NCBI GenBank assembly: GCA_036504735.1
Contig: DASXUQ010000009.1
Span: 1-64,000 of the forward strand
From: a bacterium
GTDB lineage: Bacteria > Electryoneota > RPQS01
DNA length: 64,000 nucleotides
Reading direction: 5' to 3'
Shown one piece after another: positions 9,860 through 48,449 of the stretch. The notes under the pieces are model-generated. The model ran no database searches and had not been told where the DNA came from. It worked only from the letters and a program-made list of their open reading frames with translations. The position numbers and the translations under genes were made by a program. Within the stretch, counting starts at the first letter, position 1. Each line of letters opens with the position of its first letter.

Positions 9860-10330
9860 TTATTTGAGACTTTGGACAAGTTTGTCGATGGACTCGTTCC
9901 AGCCGGTCTCGGCCATCTCGCTCATTTCGCCTTCGGGGAAACCTTCATGGCGCAGCGTCATGTGGGTCTTGCCGTTACGTTCTTCGAAGGACACCGTCAC
10001 CAGCAGTTCCAGCGGGAAATCCCCTTCCATGCCGTAGTAGGAAGCCTGGACTACATTGCCCTTCTCATCGGCAAAGCTGTCGGTCATCACCAGACGCTCC
10101 TGCGGGACGATTTCGCGGTAGACACCGGTGCTCCAGAAGTCCTGGCCGTCCGGCGAGCGCATGCAGAAAAGGTATTTGCCGCCCACATGGAGGTCGAGTT
10201 TAATGGCTGGCGCAGTGTAGCCTTTGGGCCCCCACCAGCGCTTGGCGCGCTCGGGCTCCGTCCAGGCTTTCCATACCAGATCGCGCGGCGCATTAATGTC
10301 GCGTTCGATGACTAATCCCTGCTGAATCAT
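9860..10330 (-). CDS. SRPBCC (AHSA1/Aha1-like) family protein
   Basis: ATG 10330 (MIQQGLVIERDINAPRDLVWKAWTEPERAKRWWGP). Confidence 0.75.
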   Translation of the reverse strand: MIQQGLVIERDINAPRDLVWKAWTEPERAKRWWGPKGYTAPAIKLDLHVGGKYLFCMRSPDGQDFWSTGVYREIVPQERLVMTDSFADEKGNVVQASYYGMEGDFPLELLVTVSFEERNGKTHMTLRHEGFPEGEMSEMAETGWNESIDKLVQSLK

Positions 10331-14679: not shown

Positions 14680-17235
14680 ATGAAGACTTATGCACAGCTT
14701 GTAGCGAGTGCTATGCTCGCACTTCTGATGTGTGCCGGAGCTGCACACGCGAATCAGTTTATCGCCCGTTTGAGCGGAAGCCAGGAGCCGGAACATGTAG
14801 TGACAACGGCGCAGGGCACGGGCACTTTTACGCTGACTGAAGAAGGTCTGGCCTATCATATTACGGTGGACGGACTGAGCGGGCCGATTGGCGCGGCGCA
14901 CTTTCACGACGGAATGATGGGCACCAACGGCGGAATCGTCCGCACGATTGAGTTCAACGGCAACACCGCCAGCGGCATCTGGTCACCGACCGATGCCGAA
15001 CCGCTGACGGACGACATCAAGACCGACCTGTTGCTCGGGCATGTATATGTCAATATTCACACCAGCGAGCACGCCGCAGGCGAGATTCGCGGACAGGTAA
15101 TCGTCAGTTCGGGGACAGCGCTGAGAGCGCGGATTACGCCATTTCAGGTGGCCCAGCATGGCGGACACCGCTCCACGGCAACCGGAACCGGAAGCTTCAC
15201 GCTGGTGGAAGAAGGGCTGCTTTACAAGATTACGATTAATGGGATTCCGGGCTCGGTGGTGGGAGAATTCGGGCTGGGCAAGCCCGGAGTACAGGGACCG
15301 CCCTTGAAGACCATGACCTTTACCGGCAATACCGCCGAAGGAATTTGGCATTATGATGACACGCCGCCCTTGACGGACTCGCTGGAAGCCGAGCTGCTGG
15401 CCGGACATGTCTACTTCGAAATCGGCACCGGCGGGTACTATGGCAATGAAATGAAGGGACAGATTTATCCGTCGGAAGGCTGGGGATTCGAATCGTCCGC
15501 CGATGCCAATCAGGAAACCCATTCCGTGAATTCGACGGGAAAAGCCTCCGGCGCATTCCTGCTGACCGAGCGGGGACTATCGTACAACATTACGGCCTCG
15601 GGATTGACTTCGGCGATTACGGCGGCGGATCTGCATGTGGGCAGCGCGGGGCAGAGTGGCTCGGTAATCAAAACTATTATCTTCAACGGCAACTCGGCCT
15701 CCGGAGCCTGGCTGAAAGATGATGCGGCGCAGCCGTTGACGGCGGACGTGCAGGCGGCGTTGCGCCGGGGGGATGTGTATTTCGAAATCCACACCATGAG
15801 CTACGCGGACGGCGAGATCCGCGGCCAGATGATGCCAGCGACGGGCAGCACCTTTGTTCAGGCGGAATTGTCTTCGGCCCAGGAATTCGATCCGGTGCCC
15901 AGCGGCGCGACAGGCAGCGGCGTGTTCAAGGTTACGCCGCAAGGTCTGGAGTATCATATTACGGTCAGCGGACTCTCCGGCACGGTGTCGGCGGAGTTTG
16001 ACCGCGGCGATATGGGACGCAACGGATCGCGGGTCGGGGAAATCAGCTTTGACGGCAACAGTGCCGATGGCGTCTGGTCGCCCGATGATCATCAGCCGTT
16101 TACTGACAGCCGTCTGATGGATCTGCTGACCGGAAGTCTGTTCATCAACATCAGCACATCGCAATATCCGGGCGGCGAGATTCGGTCGCAGCTCTTTGTC
16201 GTCGGCGGTTCGGGACTCGGCACCGACTTGTCCACGCAGCAAGAGGGGCATCCGGTGACGTCGCCGGGCGCGGGCGTAGGCTCGTTCACTTTGACTCCCG
16301 ATGGATTGGTGTACCAGATTACAGTCAATGATCTCAGCGGTCCGATTGGCGAGGCGCATTTCCACTATGCAGCGACTGGCGAAGACGGCCCGATTGTGCG
16401 CACCATCCCCTTCGACGGCAATAATGCCAGCGGTGTATGGCGCAGCAGCGACGCCGAGCCGCTGACAGATGAATTTGTCGAAGACCTGCTTTCCGGAGAA
16501 ATCTACGTCAACATTCACACGTCATCCTACGCCGCAGGTGAGATTCGCGGGCAGGTCTTCCTGAACAGCGGCATCGGTCTGGGCGCGGGAATGGATCCGG
16601 CGCAGGAGACGCATCCCGTGACCTCCGGCGGCACCGGAACCGTTGCCACGATTCTTACGGAAGAGGCCTTAGTCTATACCGGGACGGTGAACGGTCTGAC
16701 CGGACCCATTGGGGAGACACACTTCCACAATGCCGCGCCCGGAACGGACGGCCCGATCATCAAGACGCTGGAATTCAACGGCACGGCGATTTCCGGTATC
16801 TGGAAAGCCTCAGACTCGGAACCACTGTCGGTGGCCAATATCAATGCTCTGAATGCGGGCAACGTGTATATCAATGTCCATACGTCGCAATTCGCCGCGG
16901 GTGAACTGCGCGGCCAGATGGGCAGTACCCAGGGAGCGTCGGCAGCCGGACCTGTACCATCGAGCAGGCCAAGCAGTTTTGCCCTCGCGCAGAACTATCC
17001 CAATCCTTTCAACCCCAGCACGGTGATTCACTTCGACGCGGCTCAATCGGGGCGTGTGCGATTGACGGTTTTCAATCTGCTCGGGCAGAGAGTGGCAACA
17101 CTGCTGGACAATCCGGTTCAGGCCGGGGCGCATGAAGTCAACTTCAACGCGGCGGCCTTACCGTCCGGCGTCTACCTATACTCTCTCGAAGCTGGAAATA
17201 CGAAACTGGTCCGCAGGATGATCCTCCTGAAGTGA
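14680..17235 (+). CDS. secreted protein with six tandem CHRD domains and T9SS C-terminal sorting domain
   Basis: Signal peptide. Six repeats ending in the CHRD signature (AHFH..G.nGgiV... / GhVYVNIHTs...GEIRGQ). C-terminus LAQNYPNPFNPSTVIHF...LYSLEAGNTKLVRRMILLK. Confidence 0.8.
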   Translation: MKTYAQLVASAMLALLMCAGAAHANQFIARLSGSQEPEHVVTTAQGTGTFTLTEEGLAYHITVDGLSGPIGAAHFHDGMMGTNGGIVRTIEFNGNTASGIWSPTDAEPLTDDIKTDLLLGHVYVNIHTSEHAAGEIRGQVIVSSGTALRARITPFQVAQHGGHRSTATGTGSFTLVEEGLLYKITINGIPGSVVGEFGLGKPGVQGPPLKTMTFTGNTAEGIWHYDDTPPLTDSLEAELLAGHVYFEIGTGGYYGNEMKGQIYPSEGWGFESSADANQETHSVNSTGKASGAFLLTERGLSYNITASGLTSAITAADLHVGSAGQSGSVIKTIIFNGNSASGAWLKDDAAQPLTADVQAALRRGDVYFEIHTMSYADGEIRGQMMPATGSTFVQAELSSAQEFDPVPSGATGSGVFKVTPQGLEYHITVSGLSGTVSAEFDRGDMGRNGSRVGEISFDGNSADGVWSPDDHQPFTDSRLMDLLTGSLFINISTSQYPGGEIRSQLFVVGGSGLGTDLSTQQEGHPVTSPGAGVGSFTLTPDGLVYQITVNDLSGPIGEAHFHYAATGEDGPIVRTIPFDGNNASGVWRSSDAEPLTDEFVEDLLSGEIYVNIHTSSYAAGEIRGQVFLNSGIGLGAGMDPAQETHPVTSGGTGTVATILTEEALVYTGTVNGLTGPIGETHFHNAAPGTDGPIIKTLEFNGTAISGIWKASDSEPLSVANINALNAGNVYINVHTSQFAAGELRGQMGSTQGASAAGPVPSSRPSSFALAQNYPNPFNPSTVIHFDAAQSGRVRLTVFNLLGQRVATLLDNPVQAGAHEVNFNAAALPSGVYLYSLEAGNTKLVRRMILLK

Positions 17236-20529: not shown

Positions 20530-20985
20530 ATGAAGCACACATTACTGGCCGTGATTGCCGCAGGACTTGCCGTTTTGATTTTGACCGCAGGCTGCAACAA
20601 GTCCCTGAAACAGACCATCGAGCGGGCCAAGGGCAACGCCGCCGAAGAGCAACGGGCCGAAGAGCGGGCCGTGCAAGACTCGGAGTCGGACTACATGGAT
20701 GAATGGCAGGCTTTCCGCGGCAACGCGGAAAAGCAGATTGCCGCGAACGCCGTGACCATCGATGAGCTGAAGGCCAAGGCCGCCGGAGCCGATGAGAAGG
20801 TCCGGGCAAAGTTCAGCGCCACGGTGGACGTTCTGGTGCAGAAGAATAAAGAATTGAAAGGCAAGCTGGACGCCTATCAGGATGAAGGCAAAATCAACTG
20901 GGACGCGTTCAAGCGGGACTTTTCCCATGACCTTGAGAGTCTGGGGCAATCTCTAAAGGATCTCGATGCAACCGCGAAAAAGTAG
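20530..20985 (+). CDS. coiled-coil lipoprotein, hypothetical
   Basis: MKHTLLAVIAAGLAVLILTAGC lipobox. Charged helical remainder. Confidence 0.55.
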   Translation: MKHTLLAVIAAGLAVLILTAGCNKSLKQTIERAKGNAAEEQRAEERAVQDSESDYMDEWQAFRGNAEKQIAANAVTIDELKAKAAGADEKVRAKFSATVDVLVQKNKELKGKLDAYQDEGKINWDAFKRDFSHDLESLGQSLKDLDATAKK

Positions 20986-21025
20986 CGCCGGAATTCCCGA
21001 GGGACGAAACGGAGGGACGAAACTG

Positions 21026-22036
21026 ATGAAAGCACGAGTGAACCGGCAGATTCTGCTGGTGAAACGGCCGTCGGGAATGCCCGAGGAGAGCGATTTCCGC
21101 ATGGTGGAATCGCCGCTGCCGTCGCCCCAGGACGGCGAAGTTCTGATCGAAACCCATTACCTTTCCGTCGACCCCTCCATGCGCGGCCGGATGAACGAGC
21201 GCAAGGCGTTCACGCCGCCGTTTGTCCTGAATGAAGTGATCATAGGCAGCGCGGTGGGAAAAATCACGGACAGCCGTTCGCCGCTTTTCCACAAGGGGGA
21301 TTACGTGTCGGGCATGCTGGCGTGGGAGGATTACTCTGTCGCCAACGAAAACAACGTGCGCAAGATCAATCCGGATCTGGCTCCGGTGAGCACGGCGCTG
21401 GGCGTCTTAGGGATGCCCGGTCTGACGGCCTACTTCGGGATGCTGGAGATCGGCAAGCCCAAACCCGGTGAGACGGTGGTGATTTCGGCAGCGGCCGGCG
21501 CCGTCGGCGCGTTAGCCGGCCAGATCGCCAAGCTCATGGAGTGCCGCGTGGTCGGCATCGCCGGCTCTCACCGCAAGGTGAAGTATATGCTCGACGATCT
21601 GGGCTTTGACGCGGCCATCAATTACAAGAATCCGTCGGATATCCGGGCCTCGCTGGGCAAAGCCTGCCGCGACGGTGTGGACATCTATTTCGATAACGTC
21701 GGCGGCGACATTTCCGATGCCGTCTTTGCCCTGATCAACGACAATGCGCGCATCCCGATCTGCGGCCAGATTGCGCTGTACAATATGAAAGAAACCCACG
21801 GCGGACCGCGGGTTCAGGCGCAGCTTCTCTCGCACACGGCGATCATGCAGGGATTCCGGGTCGGGCAGTATGCCGACCGGTTCGAAGAAGGCCGCGCCCA
21901 GCTTTCCGAATGGCTCTCGCAGGGAAAAATCAAAGTGAGCGAGAGCATCGTGGAAGGGCTGGAGAATACGCCGCGGGCTTTTCTGGGACTATTCCGGGGC
22001 GAAAACCTCGGCAAGCAACTGGTCAAGGTGTGCTGA
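21026..22036 (+). CDS. NADP-dependent oxidoreductase, MDR superfamily (YncB/PTGR-like)
   Basis: Motif AAAGAVGALAGQIAKL. Typical zinc-independent MDR. Confidence 0.85.
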   Translation: MKARVNRQILLVKRPSGMPEESDFRMVESPLPSPQDGEVLIETHYLSVDPSMRGRMNERKAFTPPFVLNEVIIGSAVGKITDSRSPLFHKGDYVSGMLAWEDYSVANENNVRKINPDLAPVSTALGVLGMPGLTAYFGMLEIGKPKPGETVVISAAAGAVGALAGQIAKLMECRVVGIAGSHRKVKYMLDDLGFDAAINYKNPSDIRASLGKACRDGVDIYFDNVGGDISDAVFALINDNARIPICGQIALYNMKETHGGPRVQAQLLSHTAIMQGFRVGQYADRFEEGRAQLSEWLSQGKIKVSESIVEGLENTPRAFLGLFRGENLGKQLVKVC

Positions 22037-22101
22037 TCCGGATTCGTCCGGTTTCCGCAGACTCACGCAATTTTCGATTTCAATAGATGCCTCAAGGGAG
22101 G

Positions 22102-22219
22102 CTCTTCGCAGGCCACTGTCACGAGATGTTTGGACTTACACATTCTTCTTCGGCTGGCGATAGGTTATCAGGTGGCAGGAAGGGGACGCCATCCCCGCCA
22201 ATCCGGAAAGGATCATATC
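22102..22219 (+). promoter_or_regulatory. conserved 5' leader of RRM gene (shared with leader at 39146..39258)
   Basis: Blocks ctcttcgcaggccactgtcacgaga, ttcggctggcga, and hairpin gggacgccatccc immediately 5' of the SD ggaaagga. Confidence 0.55.
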
Positions 22220-22495
22220 ATGGTCAACATTTACGTGGGCAATCTGTCCTACAACACGTCGGAAGACGATCTTCGTCAGCTCTTCGAATCGCACGGCACG
22301 GTCGACCGCGCCAACCTCGCGATGGACCGTGGCACGGGCCGCGCCCGCGGCTTCGGCTTTGTGGAAATGCCGAATGACGCCGAAGCGAGAACCGCCATTG
22401 ACTCGCTGAACGAGACCGAACTGGGCGGCCGCAAGCTGATGGTCAACGAGGCCAAGCCGAAGGTCGAACGCAGCTCGCGCCAGGACCGCTGGTAA
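22220..22495 (+). CDS. RRM-type RNA-binding protein (glycine/arginine tail)
   Basis: MVNIYVGNLSYNTSEDDL. RNP1 RGFGFVEM. Confidence 0.9.
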   Translation: MVNIYVGNLSYNTSEDDLRQLFESHGTVDRANLAMDRGTGRARGFGFVEMPNDAEARTAIDSLNETELGGRKLMVNEAKPKVERSSRQDRW

Positions 22496-22516
22496 GCGCC
22501 AAGTTCTGATACACGT

Positions 22517-22547
22517 AGCGGGGCGGACCTTTAAGGTCCGCCCCGCT
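22517..22547 (+). terminator. GC-rich hairpin after RRM gene
   Basis: agcggggcggacc tttaa ggtccgccccgct. No clear T-run. Confidence 0.45.
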
Positions 22548-22587
22548 ATGACTCATCGGCTGGAAACCACGACAGTGAGAATACCCT

Positions 22588-22890
22588 GTGATGAACGGCA
22601 AGCAATTCGGTTTTGAAGAAGCGAAGCGGATCGGTGACGCGCTGGGCGCGGACTGGAATATGTTTCCGGTCGAACAGTTCCGCCTCGGTCTGGGTGTGGA
22701 ACTCGAGCATGGCAGCAGGGATCCGCAGACGGATGTCACCCATGACGATCTTCTCTTGACCGGACGGATTGTGTGGGCACACCTGAAAGAGATTCCCGAC
22801 TACTACACGCGCCTTCTCAAAATGGAGAAAGAAGCGGGCAAGTACTGGGCCTCGGAAATGAACTTTCCCCGGAAGAACCCCGGACGCTGA
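22588..22890 (+). CDS. conserved hypothetical protein (DUF-type)
   Basis: 100 aa. Motif LTGRIVWAHLKEIPDYYTRL. Confidence 0.5.
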   Translation: MMNGKQFGFEEAKRIGDALGADWNMFPVEQFRLGLGVELEHGSRDPQTDVTHDDLLLTGRIVWAHLKEIPDYYTRLLKMEKEAGKYWASEMNFPRKNPGR

Positions 22891-38025: not shown

Positions 38026-39102
38026 GTGACAGCATTGCGCATTGGCGATCTTGTAGCCGGACTCCCCATCATTCAAGGTGGCATGGGGGTCGGCATTTCG
38101 CTCTCCGGCCTCTCCGCCGCCGTCGCCAATGAAGGCGGCATCGGAGTGATTGCCACGGCCGGCATTGGCATGCTGGAGCCGGACTTCTTTTCCAACTTTG
38201 TCGAAGCCAATCTGCGCGCGCTCCGGCGGGAAATCCGCGCCGCGCGTGCGGCGACCAAGGGGATCCTCGGCGTCAACATCATGGTTGCCCTTAGCACCTA
38301 TGCCGAACTGGTGACGACGGCGCTCGAAGAGAAGATCGACATTATCTTTTCGGGCGCGGGTCTGCCGCTGAATCTTCCCGGTTTTCTGACCAAAGATTCG
38401 GTGAGCAAACTGGTTCCCATCGTCTCTTCGGGACGGGCAGCGGCCTTGCTCTGCAAACGCTGGACGGAGCGCTTCGATTATCTGCCGGACGCGATTGTGG
38501 TGGAAGGGCCGCGGGCAGGCGGCCATCTCGGGTTTAAGACTCAACAGATTTCCGATCCGGCCTTTGCGCTGGAAAAACTGATTCCTGACGTGATTGAGTC
38601 CGTGCGTCCCTTCGCATTGGCCGCAGGCAAAACCGTTCCCGTGATTGCCGCCGGAGGAATTTACACCGGCGCGGATCTGCTCAAGTTCATCCGGTTGGGT
38701 GCAGCGGGCGGACAGATGGGGACGCGGTTTGTGACCACCCATGAATGCGATGCGTCGCTGCAATTCAAGCAGACCTATCTGGAATCCAAGGAAGGCGACA
38801 TCGTGATCATTCAGAGTCCGGTGGGGATGCCGGGCCGCGCGATTCGCAATGCGTTCATCGATGCCATCAATATGGGCGAGAAGAAACCCTTCCGCTGCCC
38901 CTATCATTGCATCGTCACCTGCGATTATCAGAACAGTCCCTACTGCATCGCCCTGGCCCTGGTCAATGCGCAGAAGGGCAACTTGAAATTGGGTTTTCCG
39001 TTCGCCGGTGCGAACGCTTACCGTACTCACGAAATCATCTCCGTCAAGGAACTCATGCGCTGCCTGATGCAGGAATATGCGGATGCAGAACATGCTCTCT
39101 GA
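38026..39102 (+). CDS. nitronate monooxygenase (NMO/2-nitropropane dioxygenase, FabK-like) family flavoprotein
   Basis: GGMGVGIS, TIM-barrel FMN oxidoreductase blocks. Confidence 0.8.
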   Translation: MTALRIGDLVAGLPIIQGGMGVGISLSGLSAAVANEGGIGVIATAGIGMLEPDFFSNFVEANLRALRREIRAARAATKGILGVNIMVALSTYAELVTTALEEKIDIIFSGAGLPLNLPGFLTKDSVSKLVPIVSSGRAAALLCKRWTERFDYLPDAIVVEGPRAGGHLGFKTQQISDPAFALEKLIPDVIESVRPFALAAGKTVPVIAAGGIYTGADLLKFIRLGAAGGQMGTRFVTTHECDASLQFKQTYLESKEGDIVIIQSPVGMPGRAIRNAFIDAINMGEKKPFRCPYHCIVTCDYQNSPYCIALALVNAQKGNLKLGFPFAGANAYRTHEIISVKELMRCLMQEYADAEHAL

Positions 39103-39145
39103 GACGGTGTGGTCATAAGTTTTTCCAAATAGCGCCCCCCGGGGG

Positions 39146-39258
39146 CTCTTCGCAGGCCAGTGTCACGAGAAGGTTGGCTTTCGTCCTTTTCGGCTTGTCG
39201 ATAGTGAAGCGGTGACAAAATCGGGACGCCATCCCGTAAGTCCGGAAAGGATCAAATC
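39146..39258 (+). promoter_or_regulatory. conserved 5' leader of second RRM gene
   Basis: ctcttcgcaggccagtgtcacgaga ... ttcggcttgtcga ... cgggacgccatcccg ... tccggaaagga. Confidence 0.55.
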
Positions 39259-39534
39259 ATGGTAAACATTTATGTAGGCAATCTGTCGTACAACACGACC
39301 GACGAAGACCTTCGCAACATGTTCGAAGCGTATGGCCGTGTCGACCGCGCCAGCGTCGTTATGGATCGCATGACCAACCGCAGCAAGGGCTTCGGTTTTG
39401 TGGAAATGCCGAATGACGCCGAAGGCAAAGCCGCCATCGAAGGCTTGAACGAGATGGAGACCCAGGGTCGCAAGCTCATGGTCAACGTGGCTCGTCCGAA
39501 GGAAGATCGCCCCGCCCGTCGCGACCGCTACTAA
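39259..39534 (+). CDS. RRM-type RNA-binding protein (paralog)
   Basis: MVNIYVGNLSYNTTDEDL. RNP1 KGFGFVEM. Confidence 0.9.
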   Translation: MVNIYVGNLSYNTTDEDLRNMFEAYGRVDRASVVMDRMTNRSKGFGFVEMPNDAEGKAAIEGLNEMETQGRKLMVNVARPKEDRPARRDRY

Positions 39535-39554: not shown

Positions 39555-39590
39555 AAGAAGGGCGAACCTTGCGGTTCGCCCTTCTTGTTT
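39555..39590 (+). terminator. rho-independent terminator after RRM gene
   Basis: gaagaagggcgaacc ttgc ggttcgcccttcttg ttt. Confidence 0.7.
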
Positions 39591-39676: not shown

Positions 39677-42600
39677 TTAGCGCATCAGCAGCATCTTGTT
39701 AACGGCCGTAAAGCTGCCTGCTCGCACCTGGTAGAAGTACACACCACTGGAGACATCCGCGCCGCCGGCGGTCCGGCCATCCCACGTTACCGCGTAGGAA
39801 GCGGCTGCCCGGGTTTCATCCAACAGCGTGGTGATGTGCTGTCCCAGTGAGTTGAACACATCGAGGCGCACGTGTTCCGCCTTCGGCAGATCAAAGGCAA
39901 TCTGCGTCGTCGGGTTGAACGGGTTCGGGTAGTTCTGCCGCAGGGCAAATTCCGCCGGGATCTGCCGCGCCGGCTTTTCCACCGCCGTAATCCGGTTCAC
40001 CACCAGTGTCACCGGAACGATAATGGTGGAATCATACACCGCGCTCGAAACCCGCAGGTTCACGTGATAGGTATCGTTCCGCAGTATGGTCGGATCGAAA
40101 GTGATCTGAACATCCTGCGACCCTGTGCCGGCCACCGTTCCCGTGCTCGGCACCAGATGCATCCAGGTCGAATTGAACACCATCTCATGGATCGCCAGTC
40201 GTGAGCCGGTGGTGCCGCGAATCACGCCGCCGAACACCAGCAGGGTGCTGTTCCAGTTCGGGGTGATCGTGCAGCCCGCCGCCCGGTCGCCCGCTGCGGA
40301 AGGAAGATCCACCACCGTCTGGAATTGGCGCGCCGTCGGGTTGAACTTCGAGACGCGGGTCAGACCCTCACCGTCACGGCTGAAGATATAGAGCTTGTAG
40401 CCGTTCGCATCCGTCGCGTTCCACGCCATGCCCGTAATGTTCAGCCCGGGGTTGGTGACTTCCACAACGATTCCGCCGGAGCGGTCAAGGCAGTAGAGGT
40501 TCGAGGTATAGTCCGCCGCCCAGAAGTAACCCAGCGCCGGATCGTACGCCAAGGCGCGCGAGGGATTGAGCGGGCTGGGGATCGTGTCGTGGACCTGACC
40601 GTTGGCATTGATGCCGATGATTACGTGGCTGTCCGAGCCATACAGATAGGTCCCGTCGGTCGCGATGTCAAACCAACCCGTCGCCGAGGAGCCCGGTTGC
40701 GGAATCGAACCCAGATAGGTTCCGTGGTCGTCGAACCGGTAGATGAGGCCCTGCCCGGTCAGTCCGTTGCTGCCCGTCACCCACCAGTTGCCGTTCATGA
40801 ATTCACAGCCCCACGCCTGATCATCCTGCGTAAGCTGCGAGACCGGAACAGAGGCCACCGAGTCCCACGGCGCGGGGTTGTTGTCGCCCGCGAAGTAGAT
40901 GCTCGTGGTCCAGTCCAGCGGTCCGTTACCCGCATTGTTGATGGTGAAGGCCGTCTGAACCGAACCGCCCAACGTGCTGTCTTCAATCGTACTCACCGAC
41001 AGCGCCATTTCCGGATGGTTGATGTGGAAGTCCAGCGTCGTCGTGCTGTCCAACGCCACAAACACGTTCGAGGCGGTGTCGCCGTTGAAGCGGTAAGCGG
41101 AGGTCATCACGTGATAGGTGCCAATCACCACGTTGGTCAGGTGATAATAGCCCGTCGCATCCGTCGTATCGTTGAACGGATAGCGGTCGGTCGAGACGTG
41201 CACGCCGGCCAGCGGCTGATTGGTTCGCGCGTCGTACACGTGCCCTTCAACCTGTCCGAACAGCACGCGCGCATCCGTCGTAAACAGGATCGACCTGCCA
41301 TTTTGAATGGTCGCGGCTCCCGGGGCGTAGTCGGTCACATAAGCGTAGGAGAGCCCCATCAGCGACCGGGGAGCCTGAATGCCGATGGTACAGCCTTCGC
41401 GCTCGTCGTATTCGGGCGGATCGATGTTCATCACCGCCTGATTGTACTGCATCACGATTGCGCCGTTGCCGTCCAGCGTCGGACGCGCCGCGGAATCATA
41501 CAGAATTACTTCAAAGTCCAGCGGGGACGGCGGCGTATTGCGGCCTGTCGCCTTCCACTGAATCACATACCGCCCGCTATCGGGCTGATAGGTCGCGAAT
41601 ACACCCAATCCAGCTCCGCCTGTTGTGATCAGGTCGTCCCAGTAGGGGGCAATCATCGCCTCGGGAGCCTGCGGCGCGGGAATCGGATAGTTGCGGAAAT
41701 TGTCGAACCACGCCTGATTGCCCAGCGCGCACCAGCCATTCGAGCAGACCGTAACGGAGTCGTAGAAACGGCCATAATACTTGAACCGGAACGGCAGCGG
41801 GCGAACCGTGGACCAGAGTTCGGAAGTAGACGTCTTTTCGCCGACATCATTCAGGTTCAGGTTATTGGCGCTGTTCGAGGAGATATCGACGTACTGGAAG
41901 ACCGGGTGAATATCGTAGCTCAGATCGGTGTTGTCATAGGCATAGTAACCGTACGCGTCCGGGCCGGTGGGATCGGTGCTCTGCGCCGTTCCCACGTTCA
42001 CCATAAACATCACCGTGTCCGACGCGCCGCTGGGGGTGCTCATCACCAGCATCATCGGCGCCTGATGGCCATTGAAGGTGAGCGGGTTGGCGGTCAGCAC
42101 GAAGGGCGCCGTAGTATTGGAATCCTGCGCGCCCGCCGCAATGTCGCCGTAGGTTGCATCCGCCGTACCCAGCGTGACAAAGGGACTCAGCGATTGCAGG
42201 TGGCCGGTCACGCCGATCAGCGACACCGCTCCCGCGTTCAGAACCGTCACGGACAGGTTGCGGGTTAAGCCGGGCCCAAAGGCGCCATTTGTGAATTGGT
42301 ACCGCGTGTACTCCAGATCTCCGGCGGCGCAGGTCAGTTCGACCAGACCGTTAGTCGTTCCGGCAGAAGATGTGATTGCCAGCAGCAACTGGACCGTCAC
42401 GCCATCCTGCAGATTGCCGGCCACCTGAATCCGGAAGGGCTGCGCGCCCAGTGCCGAATCTCCGGGGGCGATGTTGGCATAAGAAGCTGTACCCGTCACC
42501 ACCGTTACGCGCGGATTGGTGCTCGTCATGGTAGCGGAGACGCCGGTCGCCGTCACGGATGCGCCGAAATTGCGGATATACACCGGCAGGTCGATCGTCT

Positions 42601-44695
42601 CGCCGGGGTTCATGATGTGATTGCCATTACCCTGTGTGCCGCCGTTGTTGTCATCGTCCACCGTATGGGAACTGGCCATGGGCATGCAGTCCACCGATCC
42701 ACACGGAATCGTGAACAGGTAGGGCTTGTGATTCTGCTTGGTCACCGTCAGGTACATATCGCCGGCGGCGTTCACCGATACCGGCAGTACCACGTGGCCA
42801 TTGACATCCGTCATGCCGCGCACCCAGGTGGAATCCGCTCCGCGCTTCCACAGGCAGACCACGGCATCCTGAACGGGGACGCCGTCTGCGTCGCGGTGCA
42901 CCACCACGTCTACGCTGCGCGCGCCGATATTCAACGCCGTCGGATGGGTTACATTCAGCACTTTCGGCGCGGTCGTCCAGATGGACAGGCTGGGTTCGCC
43001 AAACAGGTTATTATACCGCGAAAACTGGCCGGCAAAACCGCTCCAGTCAGCAAAGGTCGTGTACAACAGCGCCTTGGCTCCCGACATGCATGTGCCGAGA
43101 TTCTCCACATTCAAATTGATGATGTTGTAGAGCAGTCCGCCCGTGAAGGTGATATTTTCGGGGTTGTGGGTACCTGCCGTCGTTGAACCGATACCGCACA
43201 CGCCGCCCTTCGGATTGGAGACGGTTCCGGCCGTCAGAAACGAGGGCGCCATGCCGTTCGATCCCGTAAAATCACCCGCCGTGCAGGTGATCGCCAGACA
43301 GATGGGAAGCCGCCACCCGGAATTGCATCCCGCCGCCAGACCGGTATTGACTTCGCTGATCCACGCGCCGCGCCAGAGGAAGAAGCCGATGCCGTTCTGG
43401 AAATGCGGATTGCACTGTGTCGCTTGCGGAGTTCCCTGCACCGTCTCGACTCTCACGCTGTCCACGTCGGTGAACTGCGTAAACTGGGACGCGCCCCACT
43501 CCATCAGCAGATAGTTGCTGGCGCAGCTCATGGCCGTTCCCGCCAGCAAAAAGGCCTTGTGGAACCACATCGTGTCGGCCACGCCCGGCGAGCTTTCCAT
43601 GCGCGGGTTGCGCTCATAACTCATGATCTTGGCATTAATCAGGGCCATCTCTGCGGAAGTTCCACCCGTCAAACGACCAACGCCGACATCTTCCAGATCG
43701 TCTCCGGTGTTGCCCAGCGCGAAGGCGTGGTCATAGTCACTATTGGACGTGGGGACACCAAAGCTCGCGAACACTCCGCCCATCAGGCAGACATATTCCA
43801 GCGGTGGATCCTGGCTGGCATAGAGCTGTCGAATCCGGGTCTGCATCGTCCCCGCGTCCCAGTTGCTCCGAGAATCCACAATCACCCGGTAACCTTGCCG
43901 CGTCTTCCACTGAAAGAGACTGTCCACAAACGGGTTCACGGACTGCGCGTCCGGCTTGCAGAGAATCAGGTAGCTGCCGGGGGTCGTCGTCGCATCCAGC
44001 AGGGCATTCTCATCGAGGTTGGCAATCACAGTCCGGTAAATGGGCACCCATGATCCGGTGGGACGGCGCGGGGTCACCAATTCGTTGACACTGGGCCGGT
44101 CATTGGCGACCACATCCGCGCTGAGATTGCGATAGATACGCGCTTGATGCGTCACGGGGTTCACCTGCACCGGATAGAGTGTGACCGACACCACGCGGAA
44201 ATCGCGCATGATCATCGGATCGCTCATCACCACCGGGTTCGCCGGATACCAGCCGTCCTTCGAGTAGAGAGCTTCATCCCGCACCAACTGCCCGAAAGCG
44301 GAGACTTCTGGTTGCACGGGGTAGGGGGTGATGTTCTCCACCAGTTCGAAGTCGGCGTTGGTGATCACCAGATCGGCGCCGCCGGTATTCGGAATGCGGT
44401 ACAAGCGGGACACCTGCGGAATCGATGGGCTGCCTTCGGTCGGGATAGATACCTCGCCGGCGATACCGAACGATTGATAGGTCTGAAAGTCCACCACCTG
44501 CTCGCGCATCATCACCGCCGGCGTCTGCATACTAATGGACGTCATTGCCGGTGACGGGTTGGTCACTGACAGGTGCGCTTGTGATCGGGAAAAATCGGGC
44601 ACACCCTGCGGCAAGGCCGCCGTTTCTGTTGCGAATGCCGATCCGGCTGATACCATGAGGCACGCACAAAGAAGCAAACCAGCTAAAAATCGCAT
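39677..44695 (-). CDS. very large (1672 aa) secreted T9SS-sorted surface protein, possible C25-like peptidase region and carboxypeptidase-regulatory-like domain
   Basis: Signal peptide MRFLAGLLLCACLMVSAGSAFA. C-terminal CTD LRQNYPNPFNPTTQIAFD...MLLMR. The C25 assignment is weak. Confidence 0.7.
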   Translation of the reverse strand: MRFLAGLLLCACLMVSAGSAFATETAALPQGVPDFSRSQAHLSVTNPSPAMTSISMQTPAVMMREQVVDFQTYQSFGIAGEVSIPTEGSPSIPQVSRLYRIPNTGGADLVITNADFELVENITPYPVQPEVSAFGQLVRDEALYSKDGWYPANPVVMSDPMIMRDFRVVSVTLYPVQVNPVTHQARIYRNLSADVVANDRPSVNELVTPRRPTGSWVPIYRTVIANLDENALLDATTTPGSYLILCKPDAQSVNPFVDSLFQWKTRQGYRVIVDSRSNWDAGTMQTRIRQLYASQDPPLEYVCLMGGVFASFGVPTSNSDYDHAFALGNTGDDLEDVGVGRLTGGTSAEMALINAKIMSYERNPRMESSPGVADTMWFHKAFLLAGTAMSCASNYLLMEWGASQFTQFTDVDSVRVETVQGTPQATQCNPHFQNGIGFFLWRGAWISEVNTGLAAGCNSGWRLPICLAITCTAGDFTGSNGMAPSFLTAGTVSNPKGGVCGIGSTTAGTHNPENITFTGGLLYNIINLNVENLGTCMSGAKALLYTTFADWSGFAGQFSRYNNLFGEPSLSIWTTAPKVLNVTHPTALNIGARSVDVVVHRDADGVPVQDAVVCLWKRGADSTWVRGMTDVNGHVVLPVSVNAAGDMYLTVTKQNHKPYLFTIPCGSVDCMPMASSHTVDDDNNGGTQGNGNHIMNPGETIDLPVYIRNFGASVTATGVSATMTSTNPRVTVVTGTASYANIAPGDSALGAQPFRIQVAGNLQDGVTVQLLLAITSSAGTTNGLVELTCAAGDLEYTRYQFTNGAFGPGLTRNLSVTVLNAGAVSLIGVTGHLQSLSPFVTLGTADATYGDIAAGAQDSNTTAPFVLTANPLTFNGHQAPMMLVMSTPSGASDTVMFMVNVGTAQSTDPTGPDAYGYYAYDNTDLSYDIHPVFQYVDISSNSANNLNLNDVGEKTSTSELWSTVRPLPFRFKYYGRFYDSVTVCSNGWCALGNQAWFDNFRNYPIPAPQAPEAMIAPYWDDLITTGGAGLGVFATYQPDSGRYVIQWKATGRNTPPSPLDFEVILYDSAARPTLDGNGAIVMQYNQAVMNIDPPEYDEREGCTIGIQAPRSLMGLSYAYVTDYAPGAATIQNGRSILFTTDARVLFGQVEGHVYDARTNQPLAGVHVSTDRYPFNDTTDATGYYHLTNVVIGTYHVMTSAYRFNGDTASNVFVALDSTTTLDFHINHPEMALSVSTIEDSTLGGSVQTAFTINNAGNGPLDWTTSIYFAGDNNPAPWDSVASVPVSQLTQDDQAWGCEFMNGNWWVTGSNGLTGQGLIYRFDDHGTYLGSIPQPGSSATGWFDIATDGTYLYGSDSHVIIGINANGQVHDTIPSPLNPSRALAYDPALGYFWAADYTSNLYCLDRSGGIVVEVTNPGLNITGMAWNATDANGYKLYIFSRDGEGLTRVSKFNPTARQFQTVVDLPSAAGDRAAGCTITPNWNSTLLVFGGVIRGTTGSRLAIHEMVFNSTWMHLVPSTGTVAGTGSQDVQITFDPTILRNDTYHVNLRVSSAVYDSTIIVPVTLVVNRITAVEKPARQIPAEFALRQNYPNPFNPTTQIAFDLPKAEHVRLDVFNSLGQHITTLLDETRAAASYAVTWDGRTAGGADVSSGVYFYQVRAGSFTAVNKMLLMR

Positions 44696-45530: not shown

Positions 45531-48449
45531 ATGAAGACAAGAATTCTATGGTTTACAGGTCTTGGATTTCTGATTAGCGCGTTGACCGTTTTCGCAGCGA
45601 CGGCGGTCATCCACAACATCGCGAATGGAACATCTCCGAAGCCTGCGGAACCACAAGCCGTGCAACTGGGCGTCTCAATTCCCCAGTTATCTCAGACAAC
45701 ACCTGGAAGTGTGCCTTCCTCTACCCTTGACGCCGCCGCGTCAAAAATTATTGCCGACAAGAGTGAACTGCGCAGTGTGCTGGCACAGATTCAGGCTGCC
45801 AAGCGCGCAGGCCAAAGGCCCGGCAGCGATTTGTACCGCCGTCTGCAGGATATGGTCCCGGCATCGCCCCGCAGAGGTGGCCATCTGGACCAGGGCGGCG
45901 AAGCCTGCGCCAGCGCCGCCGTGATTCCTTCCGTGCCGTATTCGGATTTCGGAACGACCACCGGCTATCAGGACAACCTGCCCGAGTGTGACGGCAGCGG
46001 CAATGCGCCGGACGTGGTGTATTCCTTTACGCCGTCCGTCAGCGGCGACTATCACATCAGCCTTTGCGGATCCTCGTACGACACCAAACTCTTTGTGTAC
46101 GAAGGTACCTGCACCGGCACGCCCATCGCCTGCAATGACGACGGCGTGGCGTGCGGCGATGTCTCGTCGGATCTTCCGCGCGTGACGCTGAACGGCGGAA
46201 CGACGTACTACATTATCGTGGACGGTTGGGATGGAAGTTTCGGCGATTACGCCTTCCTGCTCGAAGAAGTGGCACCCCCGCCCACCGGCGATGTCTGCGC
46301 CGACCCCATCGTTATTCCCAGTCTGCCCTTCAGTGTAGAAAACGCGTGGACCTGCGGCTTCAATAATGACTATTCCGGCTCGACCTGTCTGGGAAGCGCC
46401 GATAGCGGCCCCGATGTTGTCTACACGTTTACCTTGACCACGGCATCGTCGGTAGAAATTATTCTGAACGCCCATCCGTCGACGACTCCTCCCATGGAAC
46501 AGTATGTCTGGCCGGGCGTCCTGCTCAGCGACCATTGCCCGCCGGATTGGAATTGCCTTGCCTCCGCCTCGAACATGACGGCTGACCTCCTGTATCTGCC
46601 GTGCCAGGCGCTTCAGGCTGGAACGTACTATGTGGTCGTCGACAATGCCAACATGTTCCAGGCCTGTTACAGCTACGATCTCACCATCCGGAACTGCGGC
46701 CCCTGCACCGTTACCAGCCATCCCGGCGACGTCGCCGAAGTGACGGAGCCGTTTCCGGTTCCGGGGACATTCTCGGTGAACGATCCCAACGGCGGCTGCA
46801 ACAATGCGAGCCCTTACCTTCCACGGTACCAGACCGTTACGAGCGGCGAGACGGTTTATGGCCGCACGTTCTTCTACACGGATTCCATCACCGGCTCTCT
46901 CAAAGCGGATACCGACTGGTACCGTCTGCTGGTGACCACACCGTCCACGGTGACGTGCACATATGCCGGCGAATCCCTGCTGCGTATCGCCATAATTCAG
47001 CCGCCGTGCCCCGGGGTGATTGTTCTGAACGGAGTGCCCTCCACGCCGTGCAATGCCGGAACGATTTCCTCCTGTATGGAACCGGGTGAATATTACATTC
47101 GCATCAGCCGCGGCGGTCCGCAAACCGGGCCGGATGCCCAGACGTTTGCCTATCGCGCGTCGTTCAGTTTGACTCCGTGCCAGTTGCCGCTGGGCCGCTG
47201 CTGCTATTCCGGGACCTGCGCCACCAACACCCATCCCGAGTGCGTGGCCCTGACCGGAACCTGGTTTGCCGGTCTGACGTGTGATACCCCCTGCCCGGTG
47301 ATTCCGCCCAATGACAATTGCCAGAATGCCGGCACCCCCGCCTCCCTGCCCGCGACCTTTACGGGCAACAACATCAATGCCACCAACGACTGCCCGTTGT
47401 ATGAAGGCGATCCGCAGGTTTGGCATGTGTTCACCACCACCGAGGCGCAGGATATTCAGGTTGACTATTGCGGCACGCAGAACTTCCACAGCTTCAATCC
47501 CTACCTGTATCAGGGATGCCCCTGCGGATCGCGGGTGATGCTGGACCTCGTCGACTGGGGCCTCTGTTCCCCCACCGCCATGACCGGAATCTGGCGCAAT
47601 CTGCCCGCCGGCACGTGGTACATTTCGGTCACCCTGTACAATCCCAACAGCATCGGGGATTACACGATCCATGTTAATTCCATTCCCAGCGGACCGCCGG
47701 CCAATGATGAATGCACCGCGGCCACGCCGATCACGCTGGTTCCGAATGGTCAGGTCACGGTGACCGGATCGACGATCAATGCCACGGTCAGTTGCTCGAA
47801 CATCTGCAACGAAGGCGGCTTCGACTACACCTCCTCGGGCGGCGACGTGTTCTATTCGCTGACGCTGACGGAGTGCCGCCGGATTGCCATGGCCCTGGGC
47901 ATCGGTGACATGCATATCGCCGTCTATCAAGGCGTGGCGCAGTGCTGCACCGGACCGGCTTTGCTCTGCAACGACGACGACGCTCACTTCCTGCCGCTGC
48001 CGGCATGGGATGTGCCCGCGCAGCATCCGGGAGAATCGCGTTCGTATGTGGCCGCTTCGTTGAATCCGGGCGTTTACCTGATTCGCGTGGCCAAGTATGC
48101 GTCGCAGTCCGGCGCGTACACGCTGACCGTGTATGATAACGGTCCGTGCTGTCTGCCTCCCGCGGCCAACGATGTCGCGGTCCTGCGCGTCAACAACACG
48201 GTCGACGTTCGCTGGAGCACCGATGCCGCGTCTGCCACACGTGGAACGTACCGCATTTACTCCAACACGAACGACATGCCGGTGGGTGATCCGAGCTGGA
48301 CCATTGTCGCGGACAATATCGTCCCGGTGGTTGGTCAGCATCACCCCTACTACAGCGCGCCGTTCGCCGCGGACGAGCGCCGGTTCTACTACGTCACCGG
48401 AATTTGCAATGAAGCATTTACCGGGACGTCCACCACATCCAAACCATAA
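45531..48449 (+). CDS. large secreted Cys-rich protein with repeated PPC-like domains (no T9SS tail)
   Basis: Signal peptide. At least 5 repeats of the pattern Y.f.l...CgssyDT.L.VY.G.C.g...ACNDD. Confidence 0.65.
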   Translation: MKTRILWFTGLGFLISALTVFAATAVIHNIANGTSPKPAEPQAVQLGVSIPQLSQTTPGSVPSSTLDAAASKIIADKSELRSVLAQIQAAKRAGQRPGSDLYRRLQDMVPASPRRGGHLDQGGEACASAAVIPSVPYSDFGTTTGYQDNLPECDGSGNAPDVVYSFTPSVSGDYHISLCGSSYDTKLFVYEGTCTGTPIACNDDGVACGDVSSDLPRVTLNGGTTYYIIVDGWDGSFGDYAFLLEEVAPPPTGDVCADPIVIPSLPFSVENAWTCGFNNDYSGSTCLGSADSGPDVVYTFTLTTASSVEIILNAHPSTTPPMEQYVWPGVLLSDHCPPDWNCLASASNMTADLLYLPCQALQAGTYYVVVDNANMFQACYSYDLTIRNCGPCTVTSHPGDVAEVTEPFPVPGTFSVNDPNGGCNNASPYLPRYQTVTSGETVYGRTFFYTDSITGSLKADTDWYRLLVTTPSTVTCTYAGESLLRIAIIQPPCPGVIVLNGVPSTPCNAGTISSCMEPGEYYIRISRGGPQTGPDAQTFAYRASFSLTPCQLPLGRCCYSGTCATNTHPECVALTGTWFAGLTCDTPCPVIPPNDNCQNAGTPASLPATFTGNNINATNDCPLYEGDPQVWHVFTTTEAQDIQVDYCGTQNFHSFNPYLYQGCPCGSRVMLDLVDWGLCSPTAMTGIWRNLPAGTWYISVTLYNPNSIGDYTIHVNSIPSGPPANDECTAATPITLVPNGQVTVTGSTINATVSCSNICNEGGFDYTSSGGDVFYSLTLTECRRIAMALGIGDMHIAVYQGVAQCCTGPALLCNDDDAHFLPLPAWDVPAQHPGESRSYVAASLNPGVYLIRVAKYASQSGAYTLTVYDNGPCCLPPAANDVAVLRVNNTVDVRWSTDAASATRGTYRIYSNTNDMPVGDPSWTIVADNIVPVVGQHHPYYSAPFAADERRFYYVTGICNEAFTGTSTTSKP

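What the first reader, a model, noticed from the sequence alone, without database searches (positions are those of the whole stretch)
22102..22219. Conserved about 125-nt 5' leaders shared by the two RRM RNA-binding protein genes
The leaders at 22102..22219 and 39146..39258 share several blocks. These are ctcttcgcaggccaStgtcacgaga, ttcggctKgYcga, and a short hairpin gggacgccatccc abutting the SD, followed by tccggaaagga and ATG. Conservation of non-coding sequence between paralogs suggests a cis-regulatory RNA, for example autoregulation or cold response as in other RRM/Rbp genes.
Basis: seen in the sequence. Interest (0 to 1): 0.55.

Follow-up and report, generated by a model that had tools for sequence, protein, structure and literature searches.

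The report
Structured leader RNA of RRM genes
Both small RNA-binding-protein (RRM) genes in this window carry the same conserved, folded mRNA leader of about 135 nt, which recurs in about 45 related uncultured bacteria, matches no Rfam family, and contains a stretch that can pair with the ribosome-binding site, so it most likely switches translation of these genes on and off.

Summary

The same leader precedes single-RRM genes in 44 distinct loci from KSB1/Calditrichota-type metagenome bins. It is absent from 76 other RRM loci of other phyla and matches no Rfam 15 family. Chlorobi-RRM was detected in control loci, so that search works.

In relatives with a clear sigma70-like promoter, the whole motif lies inside the transcript.

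P1 shows solid compensatory changes. In 44/44 leaders, a pyrimidine segment (UCCUUUUCGGCUUG) is the best complement of the Shine-Dalgarno region. This SD-masking helix is in the minimum-free-energy fold of 37/44.

The same segment can instead pair with the nearly invariant 5' domain, which is transcribed first. Covariation for these competing helices is thin.

Best reading: a new RBS-sequestering, two-state leader. It probably gives negative auto- and cross-regulation by the RRM proteins and/or a cspA-like cold response. It is a new member of a known kind, of moderate interest.

The parts
22089..22102 (+). Copy A, hairpin P1: GCCUC-AAGG-GAGGC.
   Evidence: In alignment A6, 4 of 5 pairs show compensatory changes (GCUCC/GGAGC, GCCCC/GGGGC, GCCUC/GAGGC, GGGUUC/GAACCC, GGGGUCC/GGGACCC).
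22102..22126 (+). Copy A, nearly invariant 5' block. It contains UCGCAGGCC (22106-22114, the 5' strand of P2), a variable NNN, and GUCAC (22118-22122, complementary to GUGGC at 22172-22176).
22123..22151 (+). Copy A, variable hairpin region (P3). The purine run GAGAUGU lies opposite the pyrimidine run. P3 is weak in this copy ('type C').
22142..22159 (+). Copy A, anti-SD strand AUUCUUCUUCGGCUGGCG. It pairs with 22196-22213 (OFF) or, through GGCU/GCGA (22152-22160), with 22106-22114 (P2, ON).
   Evidence: RNAduplex gives -18.2 kcal/mol over 16 bp. Enforced folds: OFF -39.2 against the free minimum-free-energy fold -40.8, which contains P2.
22160..22177 (+). Copy A, conserved joining region AUAGGU...AGGUGGCA, with GUGGC at 22172-22176.
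   Evidence: GUCAC:GUGRC is paired in 99.5% of cells but is invariant. RNAalifold predicts it independently.
22182..22196 (+).
   Evidence: The outer pair covaries: G-C here, C-G in copy B.
22196..22213 (+). Copy A, SD-side strand CGCCAAUCCGGAAAGGAU. The SD GGAAAGGA is at 22205-22212 and the start codon at 22220.
22220..22495 (+). Copy A, 91-aa single-RRM protein gene.
22516..22548 (+). Copy A, GC-rich terminator-like hairpin after the gene. It has no U tract.
39134..39146 (+). Copy B, hairpin P1: GCCCC-CCG-GGGGC.
39146..39170 (+). Copy B, invariant 5' block. UCG.GGCC (39150-39158) is the 5' strand of P2. GUCAC (39162-39166) is complementary to GUGAC at 39212-39216.
39167..39191 (+). Copy B, hairpin P3. 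GAGAAGG (an SD mimic, or anti-anti-SD) pairs with CCUUUUC.
   Evidence: P3 forms in the fold of the 5' prefix. There is no register-specific covariation.
39183..39200 (+). Copy B, anti-SD strand GUCCUUUUCGGCUUGUCG.
   Evidence: RNAduplex gives -20.5 kcal/mol over 17 bp with 39235-39252. The helix is in the minimum-free-energy fold.
39201..39217 (+). Copy B, joining region AUAGUG...GGUGACA.
39222..39236 (+). Copy B, hairpin P4: CGGGA-CGCCA-UCCCG.
39235..39252 (+). Copy B, SD-side strand CGUAAGUCCGGAAAGGAU. The SD is at 39244-39251 and the start codon at 39259.
39259..39534 (+). Copy B, 91-aa single-RRM protein gene (66% identical to copy A).
39556..39590 (+). Copy B, intrinsic-terminator-like hairpin followed by a UGUUU tail.

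Best explanation
This is a lineage-specific structured 5' leader RNA that controls translation initiation of single-RRM RNA-binding-protein genes. It spans about 135 nt from hairpin P1 to the AUG. Relatives that have their own promoter carry about 55 nt more, including an extra hairpin P0.

The pivot is a pyrimidine-rich segment in the middle of the leader, UCCUUUU(U)CGGCUUGKCG, here called the anti-SD.

OFF state. The anti-SD pairs with the ribosome-binding region (...CAAGUCCGGAAAGGA). This gives a 10-17-bp helix of -11 to -24 kcal/mol. The helix closes around hairpin P4 and occludes the SD.

ON state. The same segment is held by the nearly invariant 5' domain, which is transcribed first:
- UCGC.GGCC pairs with GGCU..GCGA (helix P2).
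- The purine run GRGAAGG, an SD mimic, pairs with CCUUUUC (helix P3).
- GUCAC pairs with GUGRC.
The SD is then free, or presented in a small hairpin loop.

Proposed control. The balance between the two states is probably set by two inputs.
(a) The RRM proteins themselves. They would bind the invariant 5' block, which is single-stranded only in the OFF state, and so lock the leader OFF. This gives negative auto- and cross-regulation of both paralogs, which share the block.
(b) Temperature. Cold would slow refolding from the co-transcriptional ON fold to the more stable OFF fold, as in cspA.

What is shown: conservation; exclusive association with RRM genes; a transcribed position in relatives; covariation in P1; and conserved SD/anti-SD complementarity together with an energetically competitive alternative.

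What is inferred: that the two folds actually interconvert, and what drives the change.
For: Conservation and specificity
- The block is non-random in the window.
- A 19-base pattern scan of metagenomes gave 42 loci. About 28 of them carry the full leader, and an RRM ORF follows about 118 nt downstream wherever the contig extends far enough. The rest are chance hits inside coding DNA.
- Every RRM homolog of this clade that was looked up by protein alone also carries the leader.
- The covariance model finds the leader in only 4 of 80 RRM loci of other species.
- Rfam gives no match, while Chlorobi-RRM is detected in control loci.

RNA level
- A sigma70-like promoter lies 64-67 nt upstream of block 1 in 11 relatives.
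- G-U pairs are abundant in the helices.
- P1 has 4 of 5 pairs with compensatory changes.

OFF helix
- The anti-SD is the best complement of the SD region in 44/44 leaders, median z = -3.2.
- Duplex energies are -11 to -24 kcal/mol.
- The helix is in the minimum-free-energy fold of 37/44 leaders.
- 92.5% of cells are paired, against 81.5% or less in slid registers.
- In the partner-swap test, own pairs average -17.5 and swapped pairs -16.5 +/- 0.34 kcal/mol; 3 of 2000 permutations did as well.

ON fold
- P2 is 95% paired, against 52% or less when slid. It has one G-C to A-U compensation, in L148.
- In folds of the 5' prefix alone, P3 forms in 31/44 leaders and P2 in 19/44.
- RNAalifold picks GUCAC:GUGRC independently.
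- Window copy A: ON -40.8 against OFF -39.2 kcal/mol. Copy B: OFF -43.1 against ON -36.9 kcal/mol.

Other
- The genome uses AGGA/GGAG-type SDs at other genes.
- Precedent: Bacteroides RRM-1 proteins are cold-induced, have 122-155-nt 5' UTRs, and show negative auto- and cross-regulation that is partly post-transcriptional. Whether those UTRs act as thermosensors is left open (PMC13370968). The rbpB mRNA carries an RbpB CLIP site (PMC11697453).
Against: - Neither window leader folds more stably than its shuffles (z = +0.8 and -0.05).
- Statistically convincing covariation exists only for P1.
- P3 pairs equally well when slid by 1-2 nt and shows no covariation. Its partner-swap test is not significant.
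- The OFF core has only one compensatory cell, and 45 of 500 shuffles reach its paired fraction.
- Alignment A6 was fitted to the OFF structure, which biases counts towards it.
- In 'type C' leaders, including window copy A, the core SD:anti-SD duplex is no better than shuffles (z = -0.4). OFF is not the minimum-free-energy fold there.
- No promoter or transcription start was found for either window copy. Both sit 31-52 nt after an upstream gene, so read-through or processing is possible.
- Thermodynamically, cold favours OFF (median ddG 7.9 kcal/mol at 15 C against 5.6 at 37 C). Cold induction would therefore need a kinetic or protein-mediated route.
- No expression or binding data exist for these uncultured organisms.
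Confidence: 0.55

Rival explanations
1. A pure cspA-type RNA thermosensor. The leader alone senses temperature through alternative co-transcriptional and equilibrium folds. The RRM proteins play no part.
For: - The two competing folds share the anti-SD, and the 5' fold forms first.
- Some sources annotate homologs as 'cold-inducible RNA-binding protein'.
- The question of whether rbp 5' UTRs act as thermosensors is raised in PMC13370968.
Against: - About 45 nt are nearly invariant, including positions unpaired in every model (for example the CA in UCGCAGGCC). That is more than helices need and suggests sequence-specific recognition.
- Equilibrium energetics favour OFF in the cold.
Confidence: 0.2
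2. A stability or processing element only. P1 (and P0 in relatives) protects the 5' end. The conserved blocks are RNase or chaperone sites that set mRNA half-life, without an SD switch.
For: - P1 is the only helix with strong covariation.
- The window copies follow upstream genes closely, so a processed 5' end at P1 is plausible.
- The Anabaena rbpA1 5' UTR affects transcript accumulation in the cold (Ehira 2005, listed in the references of PMC6091082).
Against: This does not explain why the best complement of the SD in 44/44 leaders is one conserved segment. It also does not explain why that segment has a second conserved partner.
Confidence: 0.12
3. A small-molecule riboswitch. The invariant, possibly pseudoknotted 5' domain would be the aptamer.
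For: - The architecture resembles an aptamer plus an expression platform.
- The conserved core has variable loops (NNN and the P3 apex).
Against: - All instances precede RRM genes, and none precedes a metabolic or transport gene.
- No Rfam riboswitch matches.
Confidence: 0.04
4. A DNA-level element, that is a shared promoter or operator, or simply recent duplication without selection.
For: - No transcription start is known for the window copies.
- The blocks are strongly conserved as sequence.
Against: - The blocks lie 64-67 nt or more downstream of the -10 box in relatives.
- P1 shows compensatory changes, and the helices contain strand-specific G-U pairs.
- The paralogs are old (66% amino-acid identity, third codon positions 59% identical), yet the leader is 72% identical.
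- The leader is conserved across 44 loci.
Confidence: 0.03

Closest known systems
Chlorobi-RRM RNA motif (Rfam RF01697; Weinberg et al. 2010, PMC2864571)
   Same: It is a conserved structured element in the presumed 5' UTR of single-RRM protein genes in one FCB-group lineage. Its function is unknown and presumed cis-regulatory.
   Different: - There is no sequence or structure homology. RF01697 scores 65-71 bits on Chlorobiales loci L078 and L023, but gives nothing on the window or on L001, L002, L004, L032 and L148, even at E <= 10.
- It is 73 nt with two hairpins, against about 135 nt here with a long-range SD-masking helix.
- The taxon differs.
E. coli cspA 5' UTR (cold box; RNA thermosensor, Giuliodori et al. 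2010, from own knowledge; discussed in PMC13370968)
   Same: - It is a long leader of a small RNA-chaperone gene.
- It has a box conserved among paralogs.
- It has alternative folds that differ in SD accessibility.
- The protein exerts negative feedback.
   Different: - The protein family is unrelated (CSD rather than RRM), and so is the sequence.
- Temperature dependence and feedback are not shown here.
Bacteroides thetaiotaomicron rbpA/B/C 5' UTRs (PMC13370968; PMC11697453)
   Same: - The protein family is the same (RRM-1, about 80-100 aa) and the superphylum is the same (FCB).
- The UTRs are 122-155 nt.
- There are several paralogs per genome.
- Negative auto- and cross-regulation acts partly through the 5' UTR.
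- The rbpB mRNA is bound by RbpB.
   Different: - The covariance model finds no homolog in the Bacteroidota RRM loci.
- No structure has been proposed for the Bacteroides UTRs. Here a specific anti-SD/SD model is available, but there are no experiments.
Cyanobacterial rbpA1 5' UTR (Sato and Nakamura 1998; Ehira et al. 2005; cited from the reference list of PMC6091082)
   Same: The 5' UTR of a cold-regulated single-RRM gene is needed for cold regulation.
   Different: - The phylum and the sequence differ.
- The mechanism reported there concerns transcript accumulation.
- Homology could not be tested beyond the negative Rfam and covariance-model searches.
Autoregulatory leaders of RNA-binding proteins, for example the rpsO (S15) pseudoknot and other ribosomal-protein leaders (own knowledge)
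   Same: The leader of an RNA-binding protein's own mRNA adopts alternative folds around the RBS. Protein binding selects the repressed one.
   Different: - No binding has been shown here.
- No mimicry of a known target is known.
- The pseudoknot (P2 crossing GUCAC:GUGRC) is hypothetical.

Membership tests
Chlorobi-RRM (RF01697) | Matches the Rfam covariance model at or above the gathering score (45 bits). | tested here: not met
   The window gives no hit at the gathering score or at E <= 10 on either leader. Related loci give no hit either, while positive controls L078 (70.7 bits) and L023 (65.2 bits) do.
Chlorobi-RRM (RF01697) | Located directly upstream of an RRM-domain gene. | tested here: met
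SD-sequestering translational riboregulator (generic) | A conserved segment complementary to the SD/RBS that can form a stable helix with it. | tested here: met
   - The anti-SD is the best complement in 44/44 leaders.
- Duplex energies are -11 to -24 kcal/mol.
- The helix is in the minimum-free-energy fold of 37/44.
- It is weaker in window copy A.
SD-sequestering translational riboregulator (generic) | Covariation that proves the masking helix. | tested here: inconclusive
   - 92.5% of cells are paired, but only one compensatory cell occurs in the core.
- The partner-swap test gives 3 of 2000 permutations.
- The SD strand is constrained by its own function.
Two-state (riboswitch-like) expression platform | A mutually exclusive alternative pairing of the anti-SD with an upstream anti-anti-SD. 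| tested here: inconclusive
   - P2 is 95% paired with one compensation.
- P3 has pairing potential but is not register-specific.
- The energies are competitive.
cspA-type cold-shock leader / thermosensor | A long (over 100 nt) transcribed 5' UTR with a box conserved among paralogs. | tested here: met
   - The promoter position in relatives implies a UTR of about 180 nt.
- The two window paralogs share a 25-nt block.
- The transcription start of the window copies is unknown.
cspA-type cold-shock leader / thermosensor | A temperature-dependent structural change that alters translation. | not testable with these tools
   Only equilibrium energies could be computed, and these favour OFF in the cold.
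Autoregulatory leader of an RNA-binding protein | The encoded protein binds its own leader and represses it. | not testable with these tools
   There is only precedent in Bacteroides (PMC13370968, PMC11697453). Invariant unpaired nucleotides in the 5' block are compatible with a protein site.
Metabolite riboswitch | Association with metabolic or transport genes, and a match to a known aptamer. | tested here: not met
   All instances precede RRM genes. No Rfam riboswitch matches.

The most novel reading that the evidence does not exclude
The nearly invariant 5' domain may fold into a compact pseudoknot. In this fold P2 would cross the GUCAC:GUGRC helix, with P3 inserted. It would work as a true aptamer for the RRM protein (or another ligand), making the leader a protein-sensing, bistable 'riboswitch'. 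The SD-like AGGUGA element in the joining region would serve as a second SD/anti-SD pair or as a ribosome standby site. If so, this would be the first defined RNA target and recognition fold for a bacterial single-RRM protein.
Probability: 0.2. Interest if true: 0.7.

Novelty: new member of a known kind. Interest (0 to 1): 0.5.

Why it matters
Bacterial single-RRM proteins are emerging as Hfq- or Csp-like global RNA chaperones in lineages that lack the classical ones. Their own regulation is an open question. The 2026 Bacteroides study explicitly asks whether rbp 5' UTRs are thermosensors or autoregulatory sites.

This motif gives a concrete, conserved and mutationally testable model: an anti-SD, an SD mimic and an invariant box. 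It also gives a candidate high-affinity natural ligand for this protein family. It adds an undescribed cis-regulatory RNA family for the poorly known KSB1/Calditrichota lineages.

Tried and rejected
- Rfam at the gathering score on the whole window, and at E <= 10 on both leaders, gave nothing relevant. The hits were only terminator-like hairpins downstream of the genes.
- The sigma70 and terminator scans around both leaders found no promoter.
- Single-sequence folding z-scores are not significant.
- An exact-protein look-up of the window's own RRM protein found nothing on record.
- A viral-contig scan with a two-block pattern gave one chance hit with no other blocks and no RRM gene.
- The second covariance model found no further members among 76 RRM loci of other phyla.
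- The first RNAalifold run suggested a small local hairpin inside block 1 (UUCG..GCC/GGU..CGRG). All its columns are invariant, so it cannot be judged.
- P3 as a register-specific helix is not supported: slid registers pair equally well.
- I considered a 6th and 7th pair extending GUCAC:GUGRC. It holds in copy A only.
- I considered pairing of the AAYAG linker before P1 with the variable NNN. It is not conserved.
- A leader peptide is rejected. The ATG-initiated ORF at 22087 is not conserved in copy B or in relatives.
- PMC147538 (Sato and Nakamura 1998) is not held in the library.

Full report
**Observation**

A pairwise alignment gives 77% column identity.
- The 25-nt block CTCTTCGCAGGCCASTGTCACGAGA occurs exactly twice in the 64-kb window, even when 3 mismatches are allowed. 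It occurs in none of 100 dinucleotide-preserving shuffles.
- GGGACGCCATCCC occurs exactly only at these two places.
- Both downstream ORFs (22220-22495 and 39259-39534) are 91-aa single-domain RRM_1 proteins, 66% identical to each other. They are the only RRM genes in the window.
- From P1 to the AUG the leader is 72% identical between the copies. That equals the CDS (72.5%) and exceeds third codon positions (59%).

**Related sequences**

A protein-based scan of one genome per species returned 80 RRM loci from many phyla. Only L001 (68% identity) visibly carried the leader.

An exact scan of metagenome contigs for CTCTTCGCAGGCCNNNGTCACG gave 42 loci. About 28 carry all the other blocks, and an RRM ORF starts about 118 nt downstream wherever the contig reaches that far. 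The remaining hits are chance matches inside unrelated coding DNA.

That sample was selected on block 1. I therefore also fetched loci by protein alone, using homologs at 52-77% identity. Some sources name these 'candidate division KSB1' or 'Calditrichota'. Every one of them carries the leader. This includes divergent versions (L148, L150, L151, L154, L155, L158, L161) in which P1 has a completely different sequence.

Two covariance models built from these alignments find the motif in only 4 of the 80 species-representative RRM loci: L001, L002, L004 and L032. They find it in none of the Planctomycetota, Acidobacteriota, Bacteroidota, Chlorobiota, Lentisphaerota or Actinomycetota loci.

The window encodes T9SS-sorted proteins. 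This fits an FCB-superphylum organism such as KSB1 or Calditrichota.

**Known families**

Rfam 15 gives no hit for the window at gathering thresholds and nothing relevant at E <= 10 on either leader. As a positive control, the same search finds Chlorobi-RRM (RF01697) upstream of the RRM genes of Chlorobiales loci L078 and L023. It finds nothing in loci that carry the present motif. This motif is therefore an analogue of Chlorobi-RRM, not a member of it.

**RNA or DNA**

Eleven relatives have a textbook sigma70-type promoter, TTGC[AT]T-N17-TATA[TC]T. Its -10 box ends a constant 64-67 nt upstream of block 1. In those loci all the blocks are transcribed. They are preceded by an additional 5' hairpin (P0) that shows compensatory changes.

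The proposed helices contain many G-U pairs, which are meaningful only in sense-strand RNA.

The two window copies lack this promoter and lack P0. Their P1 hairpins begin 52 nt and 31 nt after the stop codons of an oxidoreductase gene and an NMO gene. The same synteny is seen in L081/L102 and in L104/L148. No promoter was detected, so their 5' ends are unknown.

**Structure**

It is the best-supported helix. It is 98% paired, and 4 of 5 pairs show compensatory changes in 20 sequence-cells. RNAalifold recovers it independently.

Its outer pair switches from G-C in copy A to C-G in copy B.

The most striking feature is a pyrimidine-rich segment, UCCUUUU(U)CGGCUUGKCG, complementary to the region that contains the SD, CGMCAAGUYSRAAAGGA.
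- RNAduplex gives -11 to -24 kcal/mol in all leaders.
- The helix is part of the minimum-free-energy fold in 37 of 44 leaders.
- In 44 of 44 leaders this segment is the best complement of the SD region anywhere in the leader, with median z = -3.2 against shuffles.
- Own partners pair better than swapped partners: 3 of 2000 permutations did as well.
- All variation on the SD side is wobble-compatible.

The same segment can also pair with the 5' domain.
- GGCU..GCGA pairs with UCGC.GGCC (helix P2). P2 is 95% paired, against 52% or less in slid registers. In L148 a G-C pair is replaced by A-U.
- CCUUUUC pairs with the purine run GRGAAGG, which mimics the SD (helix P3).
- P3 forms in the fold of the 5' prefix, before the SD has been transcribed, in 31/44 leaders. 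P2 forms there in 19/44.
- GUCAC in block 1 is the exact complement of the conserved GUGRC. RNAalifold selects this helix on its own. Together with P2 it would form a pseudoknot.

For the window copies the two states are close in energy.
- Copy A: the free minimum-free-energy fold, which contains P2, is -40.8 kcal/mol, and OFF enforced is -39.2.
- Copy B: OFF is -43.1 kcal/mol and P2+P3 is -36.9, before any contribution from GUCAC:GUGAC.

**Limits of the structural evidence**

- Only P1 has statistically convincing covariation.
- P3 pairs as well when slid by 1-2 nt. It is a purine run facing a pyrimidine run, and it shows no covariation.
- The OFF core has one compensatory cell.
- GUCAC:GUGRC is invariant.
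- Alignment A6 was fitted to the OFF structure.
- Neither window leader is more stable than shuffled sequence.
- In the 'type C' subgroup, which includes copy A, the core SD duplex is weak. It relies on the extension UGGCG/CGCCA.

The strong primary-sequence conservation of about 45 nt includes positions that are unpaired in every model. This limits covariation, and it also suggests recognition by a factor.

**Mechanism**

I conclude that this is a translational control leader built around competition for the anti-SD segment. Default masking of the RBS is the best-supported part.

The effectors are inferred from precedent. In Bacteroides thetaiotaomicron, which belongs to the same superphylum and has the same protein family:
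- the three RRM-1 proteins are cold-induced;
- they have 122-155-nt 5' UTRs;
- they repress their own and each other's expression, partly post-transcriptionally;
- whether the UTRs are thermosensors is stated to be open (PMC13370968);
- RbpB cross-links to its own mRNA (PMC11697453).

In Anabaena, the rbpA1 5' UTR is required for cold regulation (Sato and Nakamura 1998; Ehira 2005; cited from the reference list of PMC6091082).

A coherent model follows. The ON fold forms co-transcriptionally. It then relaxes to the more stable OFF fold, which exposes the invariant 5' block as single-stranded RNA. The ssRNA-binding RRM proteins bind this block and lock OFF, giving negative feedback that both paralogs share. 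Cold slows the ON-to-OFF transition.

Equilibrium energetics alone would favour OFF in the cold. A simple melting thermometer is therefore unlikely.

**Novelty and verdict**

The element is a previously undescribed RNA motif family. It has no Rfam match, and I found no description in the searched literature. It belongs to a known functional kind, namely leaders of RNA-chaperone genes. It is of moderate interest: the finding is not surprising in kind, but it offers a concrete, testable structure for an open question about bacterial RRM proteins.

Noticed in passing
L084, L088, L089, L101, L103, L109, L121, L133, L143, L144, L147 (about 60-130 nt upstream of block 1): Relatives carry a sigma70-like promoter, TTGC[AT]T-N17-TATA[TC]T, at a fixed distance of 64-67 nt from block 1. 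They also carry an extra 5' hairpin P0 (CAUGUG..CACAUG, with compensatory variants). Both window copies lack the promoter and P0.
   Followed up: partly
window 20966-22036 with 22220-22495; window 38026-39102 with 39259-39534: There is conserved synteny. An ADH_N_2/zinc-dehydrogenase gene precedes RRM copy A (also in L081 and L102). An NMO (nitronate monooxygenase) gene precedes copy B (also in L104 and L148). Only 31-52 nt separate the stop codon from P1, so co-transcription or processing is possible.
   Followed up: partly
window 22039-22054: A small hairpin, CCGGA-uucg-UCCGG followed by UUUCC, lies right after the stop codon of the upstream oxidoreductase gene. Hairpins of different sequence sit at the same place in L081 and L102. 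It could be a weak terminator or a processing signal.
   Followed up: no
L092:951-1091 and L092:1638-1772: Two tandem RRM genes on one contig each have their own copy of the leader.
   Followed up: no
L113:1731-1870: This leader copy has an internal deletion. It joins the 5' half of P4 directly to about codon 7 of the RRM CDS, removing the SD and the start codon. It is either an assembly artefact or a pseudogene.
   Followed up: no
window 22170-22177 and 39210-39217 (AGGUGRCA); 22118-22122 and 39162-39166 (GUCAC): AGGUGA equals the 3' part of a perfect extended SD (AAGGAGGUGAUC). GUCAC resembles the 16S 3' end (AUCACC). These could be a second SD/anti-SD-like pair or a ribosome standby site inside the leader.
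   Followed up: no
window 14680-17235, 39677-44695, 45531-48449: These are large secreted proteins with T9SS C-terminal sorting domains or T9SS-associated domains: a CHRD-repeat protein, a 1672-aa C25 peptidase, and GBD_T9SS_assoc. They mark the organism as a member of the FCB superphylum.
   Followed up: partly
window 22588-22890: A DUF5661 gene lies directly downstream of RRM copy A, on the same strand and after the terminator-like hairpin.
   Followed up: no
window 9974-10031: The covariance model gives a weak hit here (10.5 bits, E = 4.6) that resembles block 1 only (GUUCUUCGAAGGAC..GUCAC). It is probably chance.
   Followed up: no
L148:1906-1977, L067:3423-3495, L012:3405-3491: tRNA genes lie immediately downstream of RRM genes in several unrelated lineages.
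   Followed up: no
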